Below are positions 6,001 to 48,000 of a stretch of DNA of 64,000 nt, piece after piece; the first letter of the stretch is position 1; each line of letters starts with the position of its first letter. The DNA is from Pecten maximus (Eukaryota). The position numbers are program-made. The stretch spans positions 25,234,001 to 25,298,000 of the forward strand of contig NC_047017.1 in NCBI RefSeq assembly GCF_902652985.1, in the 5' to 3' direction.

Positions 6001-9000
6001 TGTTCAATAATATCAACATTCATACACAGCATGACGTCGTTGTTGTCAAATTGCTTTAATGCCAGTCGCTTTTGTTGTAGCTATAAGTAAGTTACGTTAT
6101 CTATGTATTAGCGACACAATCAGTAGGTGTCATTTTCACCGTTTGTGTTATAAACAAAACTATTATCATCATTATATCCAAGCAGTTGTCACGCTTACCC
6201 GTTTACGTCACACGAATCACAGTTCACGGCACACATAGTTCGTAGTTCGTATAGGTTGTTAAATTCCCAATGTTGGACAATGATGGCTTTCTGTACAGTG
6301 ATATATAGATAAAATTATTGTATGTATAACATCACCAAACATGACCAATAAAAGTCTTCTACAACTGTACAATTGTAAACATCACCGACGTTTTTTTTAT
6401 GTTTCTCACACCGAGTTGAACTGTGAGAAGATGAGACCGAAGAGCACGATTGAAGAGAGAGCAATGGCAAACAGGAAAAGAACAAAGAAGAATTGATCTA
6501 GGATGAAGCTTATAATTTTCCAGCTTATTTCAAAATCGTCCAAGTCATCTTTTCCACAATCCTCAATCTTGATTTCCTGTTGATCAGTGGTGATATTGTC
6601 TTTCGGAAGGGGAGATTTTTTCTCTGACACGGACTCTATTTTATTGCCTTTATTGCCACTTCCTCTTTGCGGACTTTGACATCTCCCAGGAAGACAAGGT
6701 TGCTGCCATCTAACAATAAACGCCATAACTTTCGTGGCTAGCCTCCAACCTTTCGATATTTCCATTTCGTCTGGGCGGAAGAAAACGTTCAGGACGAGAA
6801 TGGAACACATCACAGCAAACGTCCCAAATACCAGAATCAAGGCCAGGTAGATAGCTAAAATAAAAAGTATACACTTCGATATATTCAAATATAAATTGAT
6901 GCTTACATACAGTCGTTTTGTTTATATACATAATACATAAATTATTTCGTATCGTACACATATTTAAGAAAATATTTACATATTGCAGGGTTTTTTTTGT
7001 GGTTTTTTTTTCAATGATTGCAATGACATAAACGTTTAATTTGTGTGTCGTGTGACAGAATATCTTACATAAGTAGCAAGCCGTTACAGAAGTACTGGGA
7101 ATATTGTCCGAGATGAGTGTTAGGTAAACAGCATACGCCAAGAGGACAGTTAGGGAAAATCCCATCTTCTCGCCGGAGTCAGCGGGAAGCTTAAACACCA
7201 TAGCACTAAGTACAGACATCAATGCTACGGGGAAAAGAGTGTTAAGCACGTGGAAGAGGGGGCGTCTCCGCATTGTCAGTGTGAACTTCAGATTGGAAAA
7301 CGTATGGTCGCCACGTGTCTTTGCATCGCCAGTAGACGCTGATGCGGTAACCATCTCCCATTCCCCGTTCTCCGAGTAGAAAGAGAAATCGATTGGTAGA
7401 CGGCTCAGCTGGAGGCTAATTTCATCACTGGTGTAGGACCAGGAACTCAGTGAGAGCGTACAAGACTGGATGTCTAATGGGTAATATGTTATGTCGGACG
7501 AGCAAGCGATGGTGTATATTCCAGCAGGATTCCAAATCACATAACCTTGTGATGTGATACGCATGGGGATGTATTTATCGTTGATGACAGAGAAATCGTC
7601 GATTCTTAAATGAAGAAAAAATATGACTTTCAATTAATTGCGACCGAAAACTGCATGTTTAAATCTCCGCAGGGAAAAAACTAAAAATACTTAAAACTCG
7701 TTTTAAATAAAGATTTTCATGACGATGCAGCCGTTTGAAAATAATTAAAGCGTTTAATTTATTTTTTTTACTGTTTAAAATTAAATTGAACCCCTAGTTT
7801 GAATAAAAGGAATATTTTACACACTGTGAGGAGAAGACATGTAAACATACGTGTTATCTATAATGAGGGAAGGTCTCCAGACGTATTCTTCTGTGGAGAA
7901 GAGAAATTTCACAGACGAATAGTCTTGAGTTGTAGCAGAGGTATTGGACCACGTAAGTCGACTATCAGACCATTTCTGTAACACAATCACACTAATGACA
8001 ATAGTATTATTACGCAAGTACCAGAGAGCAATATCTTATACATATTTAAGAGAAAACTGTTTATAATTAATTTAGCGATGTTACGAAACCTCATAATTCG
8101 GAATCCTAGAAATCCAAAAGGACTTTTAAGCAGATACATACAAATCATCGGAAAAATATTTAGAATTTTTGTAATTCTAATTTGACCTTTTTACTGGATG
8201 TCATGATCTTGCACATTTCTAGATGTAACAAAATTCACATTAATTTAAAACAATATATTTGATTAAGAAAATAAATTTGTACCTAAATTGTTTCAAAATT
8301 CTTAATGTCTTTGAAAATATCACGATATGAAGTGTGGTTATAATGAGGTATTCTCAATATTACAAAGCTATTTTGCGTGTAAATATATATCATACTCCAT
8401 TAAACGTCGATATTATTATTCCAATATGTTCCAGATATTTTTTGAAATGAATGCGCTTCCTTACCAATTCAAAATAGGCTGTTATTGACATGAACTGGTC
8501 TTTGATGTCCTGAAACAAAAAGTAGACACATTATTTCATTTCCTTATTTTGTACCGAACTAACGTGACTTACGGATAGGTTGTCTACGGTCATCCCAAAT
8601 AATAAATAATTATATCGGAGAGCTTTTGATCCTGTCAAAAACTAAAATTACATAAAAGGAGCAATGAAATAGAAGGATAAAGGACAGAGTTTGATCTGAT
8701 TTATTTGTGCGGGGTTTATTCCCCTGTAATGCCATGAAAGGACTGGTTGAACTAAGAGAAAGTAGAGTTGACTCCTTACCAGATCATTGACAGTGAGGAC
8801 GTTTAAGGACACGAAGACCCCGACTGTCTTGGACGGTCGTTGTAGAACCTCGTAACCCGTGAACAGTTCCGTTCTTAGGCTCGTCTCCAGGTCCTTGGAA
8901 TAGACAGGAGGCGAAGCAGCTCCGGATACGTCATAGCACTGGGTCAGGACCAACAAAACTAAAAAAGATGAAATTCTGTAAATCATGTATGTAGAGAGAG

Positions 9001-45000: not shown

Positions 45001-48000
45001 GTTTGATGTTATCCTCTTGGCAAGTTTGGATCATTTAATCTGGTGTAAGATCAGAAACCTGATTAAAAAAAACCCGTCATATTATCTGTACCCAGGTGAT
45101 TATATACACCACAGCACCCTGTGGATAGCTATAGACACAGACAATACTCTGTATTCATCTCTAAAGCTGATTCCGTTAGCAATGACTGGGTGGTCAGCCC
45201 GCCGAGGTTTGTTGTTAACCTGCGTATTATATCGAAACAATATGAAATCGATTGGTAGATATTGACTGCGTCCATGCTTCATTATAAATCTTATCTGTCA
45301 CTGGTAAATCCTTCAAAATACAGCAATTCTAAAAAAAAAAGTTGTCATTTTATCAAAATTAGCACAAATCAATAGAAAGTCGGTGTTACTATTTGATACA
45401 ATGCAGCATCGGTGAAAAGAAACAGCAGTTTTATGATTTTTCCATCCAAAAAAAACAACTATAAAATCATTCACCAAGATTTCCTTTCGCTACCATTTAT
45501 CAAATACTAAACCGAAATAAGCTCTGCCAAAACTATAATTGAGATAAAACAAATATCATTCCGAAACAAAATGAATACGTAAAAAAGAAGATTTGAAAAG
45601 GTATGAACTGTTTCAAAACAAAACAAAAAACCGTTTTTATATACTGAAGTAAAAATACCGTGGACAAGTTTAAGTGTTGATGGTAATTTACCAAGCAAAA
45701 GTACTATTAGAATCGTAACTGAATTTCAGGTTCGTTTTGATTTGTTGTATAGTTTGATATATTCCAAAACAATCATACGCCAATTCCGACTAAGCAAGTA
45801 AAATTTCTGAAGAATCAGTAAAGATAAACAAGAATGCAACTTCTTCGAGACTAAATTAGTGTTAGTGAACCAGCACAGTTGTTGTCGACATATTAGGCAA
45901 ATAAAATATAAAACGACATATTCTTACCTAGAAGGACGTGTTCTTTTGTCTCAAACATATCTGGTGTAAACTGCCACTTCTGCTCAAAGGTATTCTAAAA
46001 CAAACAATGCACGCAATGGTCTGGAATACATTTGATATAGGTGTAGACATTAGTACGGAGGCCACTAAGACCATATCAGGATGTTGGTTGATCTGCCAAG
46101 TTAATACTACCCAAGTGTATGTTTAATTCCAACTACTGTTGTGTCATTTGATGTCATGACGACTCCGTAAATGCATATTAAGACATAACATGATTTTACT
46201 TACCTTGTGGAACTTCCATTGATATTAGGTCGTGAAAGTTTCAATAGCAATGCCACCATTTCAGCATCATCCACCTTTTACCTTCATTGTGATGCTGGAA
46301 TAGATAGGGAGTCAAAATGTTGTTATTTAAGTTTCAAGTCAACATTAGAATTTGCTGTTTTCACAAATATTTAGAAAACATTCATTGTGTTATAGCCTAT
46401 AATACATGTATTTGTTTCCAATAGTGTGTTGATGTTGGCTACATGTATCTTGAGTTCTTAACTTGTTTCATGAGTCTATAAAACTTTTACCTGCCGATTG
46501 ATGCCAGTGTTCACAAAAAGATGAGGGAAATCTTCTTCGGTGTTCATACGACTATAGGGTTTAACAAGACGCAACAAGATATAGACACTTGCACCACAGA
46601 TTTGACTTCAGATACGTCAGAGCCAAAAATGAGTGAAACTGCATCATGCAGCATTTTCGTCCTGATAGGACTCGTCAGTGATGCCATGGACCTAAAGTCT
46701 TGTTACCTAGGTAACGTCTTAAGAAACTCAAAATATGTCAAAGGAAATGACAAAATCTCCATTGAGAGGTAAAAATTTCGTTATTCAATGAATGTGATCA
46801 TTTTGATTTTGAAATTTCAAAAAAAAACCATCAAGTGAATTTGAATTTAGCATGTGTCATGGAGAGGACAATAATAAGTTGCGATACCTTGCGTCTGATT
46901 CCTTTGTGTAATATCTATGCAAGATTAAATTCATTCAAAATGTTATACATATAACGGCAAAGCTAGAGGACAGAATGGGGAAAAAAACCACGATATATAC
47001 CTGTATTTATAATTTGTGGTATACAAACATCTATCAACATAACATGACTTAAGAACTTTACTTGGGTTTCATTACCAAATTCTGTGAAAACCCGAATATA
47101 AAAGGATATTCCATTTCAATTGTGACTCTGAGATTCCGTATGTTTACATACACGAACATAGTGTGTTAAATATCACAAAATTTTAAGTAACAAAGTATTA
47201 TTCTAAATATACATACTATACATTAATAATAAAAATCAGACTAAACTGTTTTTTAAATCATATTATCAGTGTGATAATACTTGTATTGTTTGTGCCATTT
47301 TTTAATTATTTATTTATCTAAATAAGACAGCAAATAAAAAGACTACATCTGAAGCAATGACAATACATATTAATTGTAATTGATAAATATCAAACTTCTG
47401 CATTATCTGACATGTAGTCCAATCAGATAGCATGCACGCTTTGGTCACGGACAAAGGGGAATTATTAATGTGTCTGAGTTTTCAATGAAGTGTTAAGCTC
47501 TGTGTGTATTGTGAAGACCCCCACACAGGCACAGATATTAACCTTTATAACTGAAATGATTCATTGACTGGGTCATTATCAACAAATGGTAGTCTAAATG
47601 TGCACTCTGGTCATAACTGGTATCGTTATTCAGAATTCTACCTACAGACTTATCTTTAATTTTAATGATGAATCCTAATCACTTCAATATCTAAATGGCA
47701 GTTTTAAAGTGGATGTTCTATAGGATAGGGTGCGATAGGAAACCAGGACAAACTTATCCAATGGAGATTGCGTTAATAACCGTTACAACTCCTCACTAAT
47801 GTAATCGCAAATCAATTGTTTATTATGCAATTAGACAATAATTAGACATGCAAATTCTTATCAAGGATCCTCTTTATCAAATAGCTCATCTTAGCTTAGC
47901 ATTGAATACAGTTAATCACGATTAAGGTTTTGTGTCCCATCCAGAATGCTTATGAATTCAAGTCTTCCCAAATTAAGTCTTTGTTAATTTGCTATTCTAA

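What the first reader, a model, noticed from the sequence alone, without database searches (positions are those of the whole stretch)
6406..45958. Tandem cluster of three Cys-loop channels lacking most of the canonical acetylcholine site: candidate receptors for other ligands
Seen in all three: no vicinal Cys-Cys or flanking Tyr in loop C (instead [27 protein letters not shown], sharing Arg-Gly and Phe-Ser). The loop A Tyr is replaced by Asp/Glu (WRPxLII[D/E]N-type). The loop D Trp is replaced by Tyr/Phe (AYF, AYF, GFF). Only the loop B Trp remains (SSWSY, SSWAY, TAWAY). All frames are intact. Established: ACh binding uses this aromatic box; bivalves have large nAChR-like expansions; cephalopod chemotactile receptors are clustered nAChR derivatives that lost ACh binding. 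Inference: a subfamily gated by a non-ACh ligand, possibly chemosensory, perhaps co-assembling as heteropentamers. The loop C Arg could favour an anionic ligand group.
[Added by the scan's program, not by the reader: the finding's places include an assembly gap (unread letters, written N; its length is only estimated) at 29638 to 29837. Whether the letters on both sides are continuous or in frame is not known: test that first.]
Basis: partly seen in the sequence, partly recalled or inferred. Interest (0 to 1): 0.7.

Follow-up and report, generated by a model that had tools for sequence, protein, structure and literature searches.

The report
Scallop nicotinic-like channel genes, altered site
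Three neighbouring scallop genes encode nicotinic-receptor-like ion channel subunits from a large, already annotated bivalve family whose acetylcholine pocket has been rebuilt with charged residues, so their real ligand, if they have one, is unknown.

Summary
The window is Pecten maximus. It holds three same-strand (minus) Cys-loop channel genes that match public RefSeq proteins named "acetylcholine receptor subunit beta-like" and "beta-type unc-29-like". There is no vicinal Cys-Cys, loop A Tyr is Asp/Glu, loop D Trp is Tyr/Phe, and loop B Trp is kept.

Two corrections:
- The distal loop C Tyr is kept as Phe, so three of five box positions stay aromatic.
- The start codons of genes 2 and 3 lie in upstream exons. 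Gene 2's annotated first exon sits beyond the N gap, antisense inside a broken retrotransposon. No ligand-binding or channel exon touches the gap.

The signature is not private to this cluster. It marks a clade that, as sampled, is bivalve-only: loop A is acidic in 81 of 85 members and the loop C tip is Arg/Lys in 70 of 85. The cation-selectivity motif (GEK) is present, and each gene has scallop orthologues.

The octopus chemotactile analogy is weak, because these genes are intron-rich and their pocket is conserved and charged. The best reading is non-acetylcholine-site subunits of cation channels. A structural beta-type role is not excluded. Expansion, tandem arrays and divergent binding residues are already in print, so interest is moderate.

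The parts
10010..10085 (-). Gene 1: 5' coding exon of the public model P0005 (residues 1-25)
   Evidence: tblastn 100%; exact substring and GT donor
8780..8986 (-). Gene 1: signal-peptide / N-terminal exon. The public model enters at an internal acceptor near 8961. An in-exon ATG at 8986-8984 gives MIYRISSFLVLLVL..., the start used by the scallop orthologues
8465..8509 (-). Gene 1: 45-bp exon DIKDQFMSITAYFEL (loop D; Tyr in place of Trp55)
7851..7975 (-). Gene 1: loop A exon (...YVWRPSLIIDN)
7069..7604 (-). Gene 1: large exon holding loop E, the Cys-loop, loop B, loop F, loop C and M1-M3
6406..6854 (-). Gene 1: last exon (end of M3, cytoplasmic loop, M4, stop TGA 6408-6406)
35563..35668 (-). 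Gene 2: first coding exon of the public model P0011 (residues 1-35). It lies beyond the N gap and antisense inside a reverse-transcriptase ORF, so its assignment is insecure
19491..19672 (-). Gene 2: signal-peptide / N-terminal exon (no in-frame ATG)
19042..19086 (-). Gene 2: 45-bp exon NIKDQALSITAYFTL (loop D)
18365..18477 (-). Gene 2: loop A exon (...[11 protein letters not shown])
16014..16561 (-). Gene 2: large exon (loop E to M3)
14891..15339 (-). Gene 2: last exon with stop
45928..45994 (-). Gene 3: upstream coding exon of the public model P0029 (residues 3-25). Residues 1-2 were not located.
42740..42933 (-). Gene 3: signal-peptide / N-terminal exon (no in-frame ATG)
42512..42556 (-). 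Gene 3: 45-bp exon DIRDQTLSLTGFFTF (loop D; Phe in place of Trp55)
40767..40879 (-). Gene 3: loop A exon (...[11 protein letters not shown])
39994..40529 (-). Gene 3: large exon (loop E to M3)
39071..39597 (-). Gene 3: last exon with stop
29638..29837 (.). Assembly gap. It is intergenic, or lies inside intron 1 of the public gene 2 model. It touches no receptor exon

Best explanation
These are three old tandem paralogues of a clade of nicotinic-receptor-like subunits that, as sampled here, is confined to bivalves.

Shown:
- Each gene encodes a full pentameric-channel subunit: ligand-binding domain, Cys-loop of 13 intervening residues, M1-M4.
- The pore has the cation-type GEK motif, a 9' Leu and an acidic outer ring.
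- Both faces of the orthosteric site differ from an acetylcholine site. The principal face has Asp/Glu for loop A Tyr, Thr or Ala for Tyr190, and Arg-Gly in place of Cys-Cys. It keeps loop B Trp and has Phe at the distal loop C Tyr position.
- The complementary face has Tyr/Phe for Trp55, Arg at the Leu109-equivalent position and Asn at the Leu119-equivalent position.

Inferred:
- Interfaces made by these subunits do not bind acetylcholine.
- The subunits assemble into cation-permeable pentamers.
- Where they do form an agonist site, the ligand is a small polar or charged molecule, not acetylcholine and not the hydrophobic cues of octopus receptors.
- Variable loop E positions would tune specificity between paralogues.

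The ligand, the partner subunits and the tissue are unknown.
For: Domains and splice structure. AlphaFold2 model of the public gene 1 protein: mean pLDDT 84.4, pTM 0.73, with beta-sandwich strands and four long helices. The best Foldseek matches are all nicotinic receptors.

Residue equivalences.

Family-wide pattern in 85 full-length clade members:
- loop A acidic in 81 of 85
- loop B Trp in 71 of 85
- loop C tip Arg/Lys in 70 of 85
- distal loop C Phe/Tyr in 79 of 85
- loop D aromatic in 71 of 78
These states change only 2-6 times on the tree.

Arg/Lys occupies the Leu109-equivalent position in 85 of 85. Loop E positions 159, 163 and 165 are highly variable. None of 149 relatives has a loop C Cys-Cys.

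GEK motif and M2 are near-invariant.

Each gene has a fully supported orthologue group in other scallops. On the large exon dN is 0.25-0.32 and dS is saturated.

Some unnamed clade members sit on contigs of 1.5-2.7 kb that encode 440-486 residues. This implies spliced transcripts; that step is my inference.
Against: No functional, expression or ligand data exist for these genes or any clade member that I could find.

Conservation of the pocket is not exceptional. 40% of 211 extracellular positions reach 90% class conservation, and the five sites rank 57th to 109th of 211 by entropy. Ordinary non-alpha subunits also conserve unused principal-face residues (recalled). Conservation therefore does not prove ligand binding.

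The best sequence match among solved structures is the muscle beta subunit, a structural non-binding subunit (1.1e-33).

Arg at the Leu109-equivalent position is also common outside the clade (41 of 64 other representatives).

A loop A / loop C charge swap in one lineage suggests the Arg may be engaged internally.

The Leu109, Gln117 and Leu119 equivalences rest on ungapped offsets from the first Cys-loop Cys and on recalled numbering.
Confidence: 0.4

Rival explanations
1. These are accessory or structural beta-type subunits. They fill non-binding positions in acetylcholine-gated heteropentamers built around canonical scallop alpha subunits, as muscle beta1 does in vertebrates. The conserved acid-Arg-Trp set only stabilises a loop C that lacks its disulfide.
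For: The best solved-structure match is the muscle beta subunit. The public names are 'beta-like' and 'unc-29-like'. There is no Cys-Cys. The pocket sites are no more conserved than the scaffold. The charge swap between loop A and loop C in P0056/P0064, against their sister P0063, fits a structural salt bridge. In Crassostrea gigas 33 of 132 nicotinic receptor genes are alpha type (Results of PMC6896357), so partners exist in bivalves.
Against: There are at least six scallop orthologue groups of one clade with the same signature, which is many for a purely structural role. The complementary face is also non-canonical, with Tyr/Phe for Trp55 and Arg for Leu109, so they could not serve as ordinary acetylcholine-site partners. 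The covariation is one event. The tree-aware test found too few independent pairs (3-4; median p 0.5-1).
Confidence: 0.33
2. The site is self-liganded. The loop C Arg sits in the remaining aromatic box (loop B Trp, loop C Phe, loop D Tyr) and pairs with the loop A acid, mimicking a bound ammonium. Gating would then come from pH, ions or an allosteric ligand.
For: The charge swap in one Mytilus lineage. Loop B Trp and the loop C base are lost together in three lineages: P0047/49, P0095-P0105 and P0090. There is precedent for a self-liganded loop B Trp in the orphan annelid receptor Alpo4 (passages of PMC10338036).
Against: Trp is lost alone in three other lineages: P0046, P0072 and P0093. The association is not significant. 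No coordinates were available to measure distances. Ten clade members have Lys-type or other variants without any obvious compensation.
Confidence: 0.12
3. These are bivalve counterparts of cephalopod chemotactile receptors: peripheral contact chemoreceptors for environmental molecules.
For: Loss of acetylcholine determinants, tandem arrangement and membership of an expanded molluscan family. A 'CR-like' clade is reported to reach bivalves (section 3.4.4 of PMC13174522). Many bivalve nicotinic receptor genes are gill-expressed (Results of PMC6896357).
Against: The genes are intron-rich with conserved intron phases, whereas chemotactile receptors are described as intronless. The pocket is charged and conserved, not hydrophobic and diversifying. 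No chemotactile receptor appears among the 60 best sequence matches to solved structures or among the Foldseek matches listed to rank 49. There are no expression data.
Confidence: 0.07
4. These are decaying or non-functional duplicates.
For: Gene 2 has no secure start codon. Its annotated first exon lies inside a transposon and across the gap. A 76-bp tandem repeat has copied the 3' end of one of its exons.
Against: All 15 core exons are open with canonical splice sites. Orthologues are 79-83% identical in other scallop genera. dN is far below the saturated dS.
Confidence: 0.03

Closest known systems
Expanded, tandemly arrayed nicotinic receptor genes of bivalves (Jiao et al. [quoted passage not shown]
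   Same: Same phenomenon and same gene family. Tandem arrays, mostly non-alpha genes, and divergent binding domains are reported, with the authors' suggestion that these may bind diverse ligands. The three genes are already annotated public proteins.
   Different: The parts of those papers that I read give no residue-level signature for this clade. They stress intronless retrogenes, whereas these three genes are intron-rich.
Vertebrate muscle nicotinic receptor beta1 subunit
   Same: It is the best sequence match among solved structures (1.1e-33, 120 bits). It is a non-alpha subunit without the loop C Cys-Cys, with the same fold and the same cation pore motif.
   Different: Beta1 has Tyr where these proteins keep the loop B Trp (alignment). 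Identity is only 28-29%. The acid / Arg pair is not a beta1 feature in that alignment.
Cephalopod chemotactile receptors
   Same: They are nicotinic-receptor derivatives in molluscs that no longer use the acetylcholine site, expanded in clusters, and are cation channels.
   Different: They are intronless, their pocket is hydrophobic and under diversifying selection, and they are cephalopod-dominated. Here there are six or more exons and a charged, conserved pocket, and every named clade member is a bivalve.
Alpo4, the orphan nicotinic-like receptor of the annelid Alvinella pompejana
   Same: It is a lophotrochozoan nicotinic-like subunit without the loop C Cys-Cys. No agonist was found for it despite screening, and its loop B Trp is engaged internally in the apo state.
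   Different: Alpo4 keeps all five aromatic positions (F103, W159, Y199, Y205, W65). The scallop clade has replaced loop A and the first loop C aromatic with polar or charged residues.
5-HT3A receptor
   Same: It is a cationic Cys-loop receptor without the loop C Cys-Cys. It is the best match for the Cys-loop-to-M1 segment (8.2e-13), and its loop C Tyr aligns with Phe244.
   Different: Over the whole large exon it scores below the nicotinic receptors. No other serotonin-site residues were tested.

Membership tests
Cys-loop pentameric ligand-gated ion channels (nicotinic-type branch) | Neur_chan_LBD plus Neur_chan_memb domains | tested here: met
   Both domains match on all three large exons. 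The membrane domain also matches on all three last exons, though for gene 1's last exon the score (26.0 bits) is below the curated cut-off of 28.1.
Cys-loop pentameric ligand-gated ion channels (nicotinic-type branch) | Two Cys separated by 13 residues (the Cys-loop) | tested here: met
   [15 protein letters not shown] and its counterparts. Both Cys are present in 103 of 105 relatives.
Cys-loop pentameric ligand-gated ion channels (nicotinic-type branch) | Four transmembrane helices and a nicotinic-receptor fold | tested here: met
   The model has helices 257-280, 287-309, 319-345 and 432-468. The top Foldseek hits are nicotinic receptors, with target-normalised TM-scores of 0.76-0.86.
Cation-selective nicotinic / 5-HT3 type pore | Gly-Glu-Lys before M2 and Leu at 9' | tested here: met
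   DSGEKMG / DSGEKIG / ESGEKIG. Glu is present in 103 of 105 relatives and Leu 9' in 104 of 105. Selectivity itself was not measured.
Acetylcholine-binding alpha subunit | Vicinal Cys-Cys at the tip of loop C | tested here: not met
   Arg-Gly occupies that place. None of 149 relatives has it.
Acetylcholine-binding alpha subunit | Principal-face aromatics: loop A Tyr, loop B Trp, two loop C Tyr | tested here: not met
   Loop A is Asp/Glu and the first loop C Tyr is Thr or Ala. Loop B Trp is kept, and the distal loop C position is Phe.
Acetylcholine-site complementary (beta2 / gamma / delta type) subunit | Loop D Trp55 and a hydrophobic loop E | tested here: not met
   The loop D position is Tyr, Tyr and Phe. 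The Leu109-equivalent is Arg and the Leu119-equivalent is Asn (numbering recalled). The 15-residue exon was too short to send to the structure search.
Cephalopod chemotactile receptors | Intronless gene structure | tested here: not met
   Each gene has six or more coding exons. The feature is as stated in PMC13174522.
Cephalopod chemotactile receptors | Hydrophobic binding pocket under diversifying selection | tested here: not met
   The pocket is charged and conserved. The feature is as stated in PMC13174522 and PMC11526382.
Cephalopod chemotactile receptors | Phylogenetic placement in the CR or CR-like clade | not testable with these tools
   No chemotactile receptor sequence could be obtained.
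Cephalopod chemotactile receptors | Expression in peripheral sensory epithelium and activation by environmental molecules | not testable with these tools
   No expression or physiology data were available.

The most novel reading that the evidence does not exclude
The clade is a bivalve-wide family of cation channels gated by a small zwitterionic or anionic metabolite, such as betaine, taurine or an amino acid. The ligand would be held by an acid (loop A), a Trp/Phe/Tyr cage and two arginines (loop C tip and loop E). Variable loop E residues would give each tandem paralogue its own tuning. That would be a new ligand class for nicotinic-type receptors in molluscs, and a route by which gills or the mantle edge sense dissolved organic molecules.
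Probability: 0.15. Interest if true: 0.75.

Novelty: new member of a known kind. Interest (0 to 1): 0.38.

Why it matters
Bivalves carry 99-217 nicotinic-receptor-like genes (PMC6896357), and almost none has a known ligand. This clade has a clear, conserved and testable residue signature: an acid, an Arg and Trp on one face, and Tyr/Phe and Arg on the other. Its members are intact, with clear orthologues across scallops. That makes it a practical entry point for deorphanising part of the expansion. If the subunits gate on something other than acetylcholine, it would be a second independent case in molluscs, after the octopus receptors, of a transmitter receptor turned to another chemical. If they prove to be structural partners, the finding is ordinary.

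Tried and rejected
- A phylogeny with canonical alpha subunits, 5-HT3, ZAC and chemotactile receptors could not be built. The 150 best of 9,973 representatives and the two word-based searches returned only non-alpha relatives, and no reference sequences could be brought in.
The unnamed 'ena', 'lgn' and 'jgi' rows therefore stay without taxon.
- The protein-atlas look-up gave only generic Cys-loop clusters.
- A test of whether loop B Trp, the loop A acid and the loop C base change together found only 3-4 independent pairs and no significance.
- dN/dS between the paralogues could not be computed on the large exon, because dS is saturated.
- A search for a nearer start exon for gene 2, using orthologue N-termini, found nothing convincing.
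- A repeat search across the gap found nothing that links its two sides.
- I rejected a fourth receptor gene in the window. tblastn with five Pecten paralogues hits only the three genes and their upstream exons.
- I did not run a complex prediction. Any Cys-loop domain pair would pass by likeness to solved pentamers, so it would not have changed my odds.
- The van Giesen 2020 paper is not held. I did not see Allard 2023. Statements about chemotactile receptors come from two secondary sources.

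
Full report
**What is there.** The window comes from the king scallop, Pecten maximus. 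The large exon of the first gene is 100% identical to a public protein named "acetylcholine receptor subunit beta-like [Pecten maximus]" (P0005). Stop-to-stop frames, Pfam and tblastn with five Pecten paralogues show exactly three Cys-loop channel genes, all on the minus strand. Gene 1 has core exons from 6406 to 8986 and matches P0005. Gene 2 runs from 14891 to 19672 and matches P0011, also named "beta-like". Gene 3 runs from 39071 to 42933 and matches P0029, named "beta-type unc-29-like". tblastn found no fourth receptor gene or fragment elsewhere in the window.

**Gene structure.** Each gene has the same five core exons:
- a signal-peptide / N-terminal exon
- a 45-bp exon
- a loop A exon
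- a 534-546-bp exon running from loop E to M3
- a last exon with the cytoplasmic loop and M4

All junctions are GT-AG with the same phases in the three genes. Seventeen of 18 exon translations are exact substrings of the public proteins. The one miss was my own start coordinate for gene 3's N-terminal exon, which tblastn places at 97% identity. The 15-residue exon is below the tools' minimum length and could not be searched alone. Whole-protein analyses used the public database proteins.

**The gap and the starts.** The N run at 29638-29837 lies in AT-rich non-coding sequence between gene 2 and gene 3. No receptor exon lies within 9 kb of it. Nothing repeated spans it, so continuity cannot be shown from the letters.

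It matters in one respect. Gene 2's N-terminal exon has no ATG. The public model takes its first 35 residues from 35668-35563, on the far side of the gap. That exon is antisense inside a reverse-transcriptase element that is itself broken into two frames. Gene 2's start is therefore unresolved.

Gene 3 also begins in an upstream exon (45994-45928). Residues 1-2 of its public model were not located.

Gene 1 has two possible starts: an upstream exon (10085-10010), or an in-exon ATG at 8986 that matches where the Mizuhopecten and Ylistrum orthologues begin.

**Checking the residues.** In an alignment to the alpha1 extracellular domain, gene 1's Asp falls on loop A Tyr93 (the E-value is weak because the exon is short, but the WRP anchor is unambiguous).

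Alignments to human alpha6 and alpha3 give the following for gene 1:
- Thr238 at the first loop C Tyr
- Arg239 one residue before the first Cys
- a one-residue deletion at the first Cys
- Gly240 at the second Cys
- Phe244 at the distal loop C Tyr (the same column is Tyr in 5-HT3A)

Two of the five classical aromatic positions are therefore lost: loop A and the first loop C Tyr. Three stay aromatic: loop B Trp, distal loop C Phe, and loop D Tyr/Phe. The vicinal Cys pair is gone.

The loop D assignment rests on three things. The column lies five residues before the invariant W-x-D-x-x-L-x-W motif. It falls in a modelled beta strand. Trp is the commonest residue there in relatives outside the clade (18 of 64). 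The canonical numbering is recalled.

**A family trait, not a local oddity.** The large exon of gene 1 finds 109 proteins at E <= 1e-10 among 1,612 candidates. Eighty-five of them carry an organism name, and all 85 are bivalves: scallops, mussels, oysters, pearl oysters, ark shells, unionids, venerids, Mya, Dreissena and Solemya. A scan of all 1.84 billion representatives gives 9,973 proteins at E <= 0.001 and 183 at E <= 1e-30. None of 149 full-length relatives (380-600 residues, out of 250 proteins held) has a loop C Cys-Cys.

I then took 85 full-length clade members. I dropped 4 fused double proteins, 16 rows outside 380-600 residues, and P0106-P0109 as outliers. In those 85:
- loop A is Glu or Asp in 81
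- loop B is Trp in 71
- the loop C tip is Arg or Lys in 70
- the distal loop C position is Phe or Tyr in 79
- loop D is aromatic in 71 of the 78 that have the exon

Sixty-five of 85 combine acid, Trp and base. Within loop C, which is otherwise hypervariable, only the Arg and the Phe-Ser stand out.

This conservation is real but not exceptional. Forty per cent of the 211 extracellular positions are at least 90% class-conserved, and the five sites rank 57th to 109th by entropy.

A profile search (209 proteins at E <= 1e-20 among 8,000 candidates, 120 listed) adds the first non-bivalves: Patella, Haliotis and Littorina. These keep Trp in loop D and lack the loop C Arg. The Tyr/Phe-plus-Arg signature is therefore, as sampled, bivalve-only.

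**Age and constraint.** In a FastTree tree of 96 rows, each of the three genes groups at 100% local support with orthologues in other scallop genera:
- gene 1 with Mizuhopecten and Ylistrum
- gene 2 with Argopecten
- gene 3 with Mizuhopecten, Ylistrum and Argopecten

The clade splits into a pteriomorph part (50 rows, 99) and a heteroconch-plus-unionid part (27 rows, 99). FastTree supports are local, and long branches were flagged among the outgroups.

The three proteins are 49-53% identical to each other. On the large exon dN is 0.25-0.32 and dS is too saturated to compute. These are old duplicates kept under purifying selection.

Two further Pecten paralogues of the clade, P0019 and P0033, lie on a contig of the same length as the one carrying the three genes. 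They are not in the window.

**The channel.** The segment before M2 reads D/E-S-G-E-K. M2 has Leu at 9' and an acidic residue at 20', and all of this is near-invariant in the clade. From established knowledge of nicotinic and 5-HT3 pores, this is the cation-selective pattern. Selectivity itself was not measured.

An AlphaFold2 model of the public gene 1 protein, built with a 56-sequence alignment, is confident outside the signal peptide and the cytoplasmic loop (mean pLDDT 84.4, pTM 0.73). Its best Foldseek matches are alpha7, muscle and alpha4beta2 nicotinic receptors at 22-29% identity. Model coordinates are not exposed, so I could not measure pocket geometry.

**How it most likely works.** The principal face of the site has an acid, an arginine, Trp and Phe. 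The complementary face has Tyr/Phe, an Arg or Lys at the Leu109-equivalent position (85 of 85) and Asn/Thr/Ser at the Leu119-equivalent position. The neighbouring loop E positions 159, 163 and 165 vary freely. These loop E equivalences use ungapped offsets from the Cys-loop and recalled numbering.

A pocket with charged residues on both faces is a poor fit for acetylcholine. It is equally a poor fit for the hydrophobic ligands of octopus receptors. My best reading (0.4) is that interfaces made by these subunits do not bind acetylcholine. Where they form an agonist site, the ligand would be small and polar or charged.

Nearly as likely (0.33) is the plain alternative. On that view they fill structural positions in acetylcholine-gated heteromers, like muscle beta1, which is their best sequence match among solved structures.

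A third idea comes from the data. In two Mytilus orthologues, loop A is Lys and the loop C position is Asp or Glu, while their sister keeps Glu and Lys. Loop B Trp and the loop C base are lost together in three lineages, but Trp is lost alone in three others. This hints that the Arg pairs with the loop A acid and stacks on the Trp, giving a self-occupied site like the self-liganded Trp reported for the orphan annelid receptor Alpo4. The tree-aware test has only 3-4 independent pairs and is not significant.

**Comparison with what is known.** Jiao et al. 2019 (outline and Results parts 1-2 read) report several relevant points. Bivalves have 99-217 nicotinic receptor genes. In Crassostrea gigas and Pinctada fucata martensii, 55-65% of these genes lie in tandem arrays. 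Only 33 of 132 oyster genes are alpha type, and only 13 of those keep the full principal site. [quoted passage not shown]

The MolluscaGenes preprint (passages, outline and section 3.4 read) resolves 15 molluscan clades. It notes clades with substitutions at agonist-coordinating positions, a bivalve-enriched "AChRB" clade and a "CR-like" clade reaching bivalves. It gives no residue details in the text I could read. Supplements of both papers were closed and may hold alignments that already show this signature.

Chemotactile receptors are described as intronless, hydrophobic-pocketed and under diversifying selection in the pocket. These genes fail all three features. I saw neither van Giesen 2020 (not held) nor Allard 2023.

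Four literature searches and a bivalve tentacle transcriptome paper (passages read; it did not screen nicotinic-like receptors) turned up no functional study of this clade.

**Verdict.** The genes are annotated members of a known expansion. The general idea that such receptors may have other ligands is already in print. What this analysis adds:
- a residue-level signature shared across a bivalve-only clade
- the correction that part of the aromatic box survives
- evidence against the chemotactile analogy
- a caution about gene 2's start

Ligand, partner subunits and tissue remain untested.

Noticed in passing
window 18197-18408 (minus-strand gene 2, loop A exon and the following intron): A 76-bp tandem repeat (2.8 copies, 74% matches) has copied the 3' end of gene 2's loop A exon together with its donor region. 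This leaves two degenerate pseudo-exon ends that read YVWKLSLIPDNA and RRPSLLLDNA downstream of the real [12 protein letters not shown]. They could act as decoy splice donors.
   Followed up: partly
window 34477-35893 (+), with 35563-35668 (-): A reverse-transcriptase element is broken into two frames (Pfam RVT_1, E = 5.7e-11 and 2.7e-4). The annotated first coding exon of gene 2 lies antisense inside it, 16 kb and one assembly gap away from the rest of the gene. It is either a transposon-derived first exon or an annotation artefact.
   Followed up: partly
window 10010-10085 and 8984-8986 (-): Gene 1 has two candidate starts. The upstream exon ends in ...GRFYIL, which resembles the N-terminus of the Mizuhopecten orthologue (MRRFYLSV...). 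The in-exon ATG gives MIYRISSFLVLL.... The upstream exon may be a partial duplicate of the exon's 5' end.
   Followed up: partly
window 50201-50494 (-): A fragment of a mariner-type transposase (Pfam Transposase_1, E = 3.5e-24).
   Followed up: partly
window 54006-55178 (-): Exons of a leucine-rich-repeat protein (LRR_8, E = 1.7e-15), downstream of the receptor cluster on the same strand.
   Followed up: partly
window 61365-61613 (+): An exon matching Pfam NTPase_1 (E = 3.9e-15), probably a nucleoside-triphosphatase gene.
   Followed up: partly
window 16881-17329 (gene 2 intron): Open frames on both strands with a repeated unit (for example TVNLGRLEEGPGVGY...). This looks like a tandem repeat inside the intron between the loop A exon and the large exon.
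   Followed up: no
window 62219-62574 (+): Long open frames made of a repeated His/Thr/Tyr-rich unit (...HTYTSIYT...). GC skew is strongly negative at 62-64 kb. This looks like a low-complexity tandem repeat.
   Followed up: no
window 22193-22516 (-): An open frame with a Cys/His-rich motif (SPFCSCGYIEDNFHFLFMCEKF). From recall, it looks like the C-terminal part of a non-LTR retrotransposon ORF2. Pfam gave no match.
   Followed up: partly
window about 15200 (gene 2) and about 39450 (gene 3), last exons (-): Runs of three cysteines just after M3 (CWKGHCCCRK in gene 2, YKNKCCCFTF in gene 3). The clade consensus has CWK...CC. These may be palmitoylation sites. Gene 1 has only spaced single cysteines here.
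   Followed up: no
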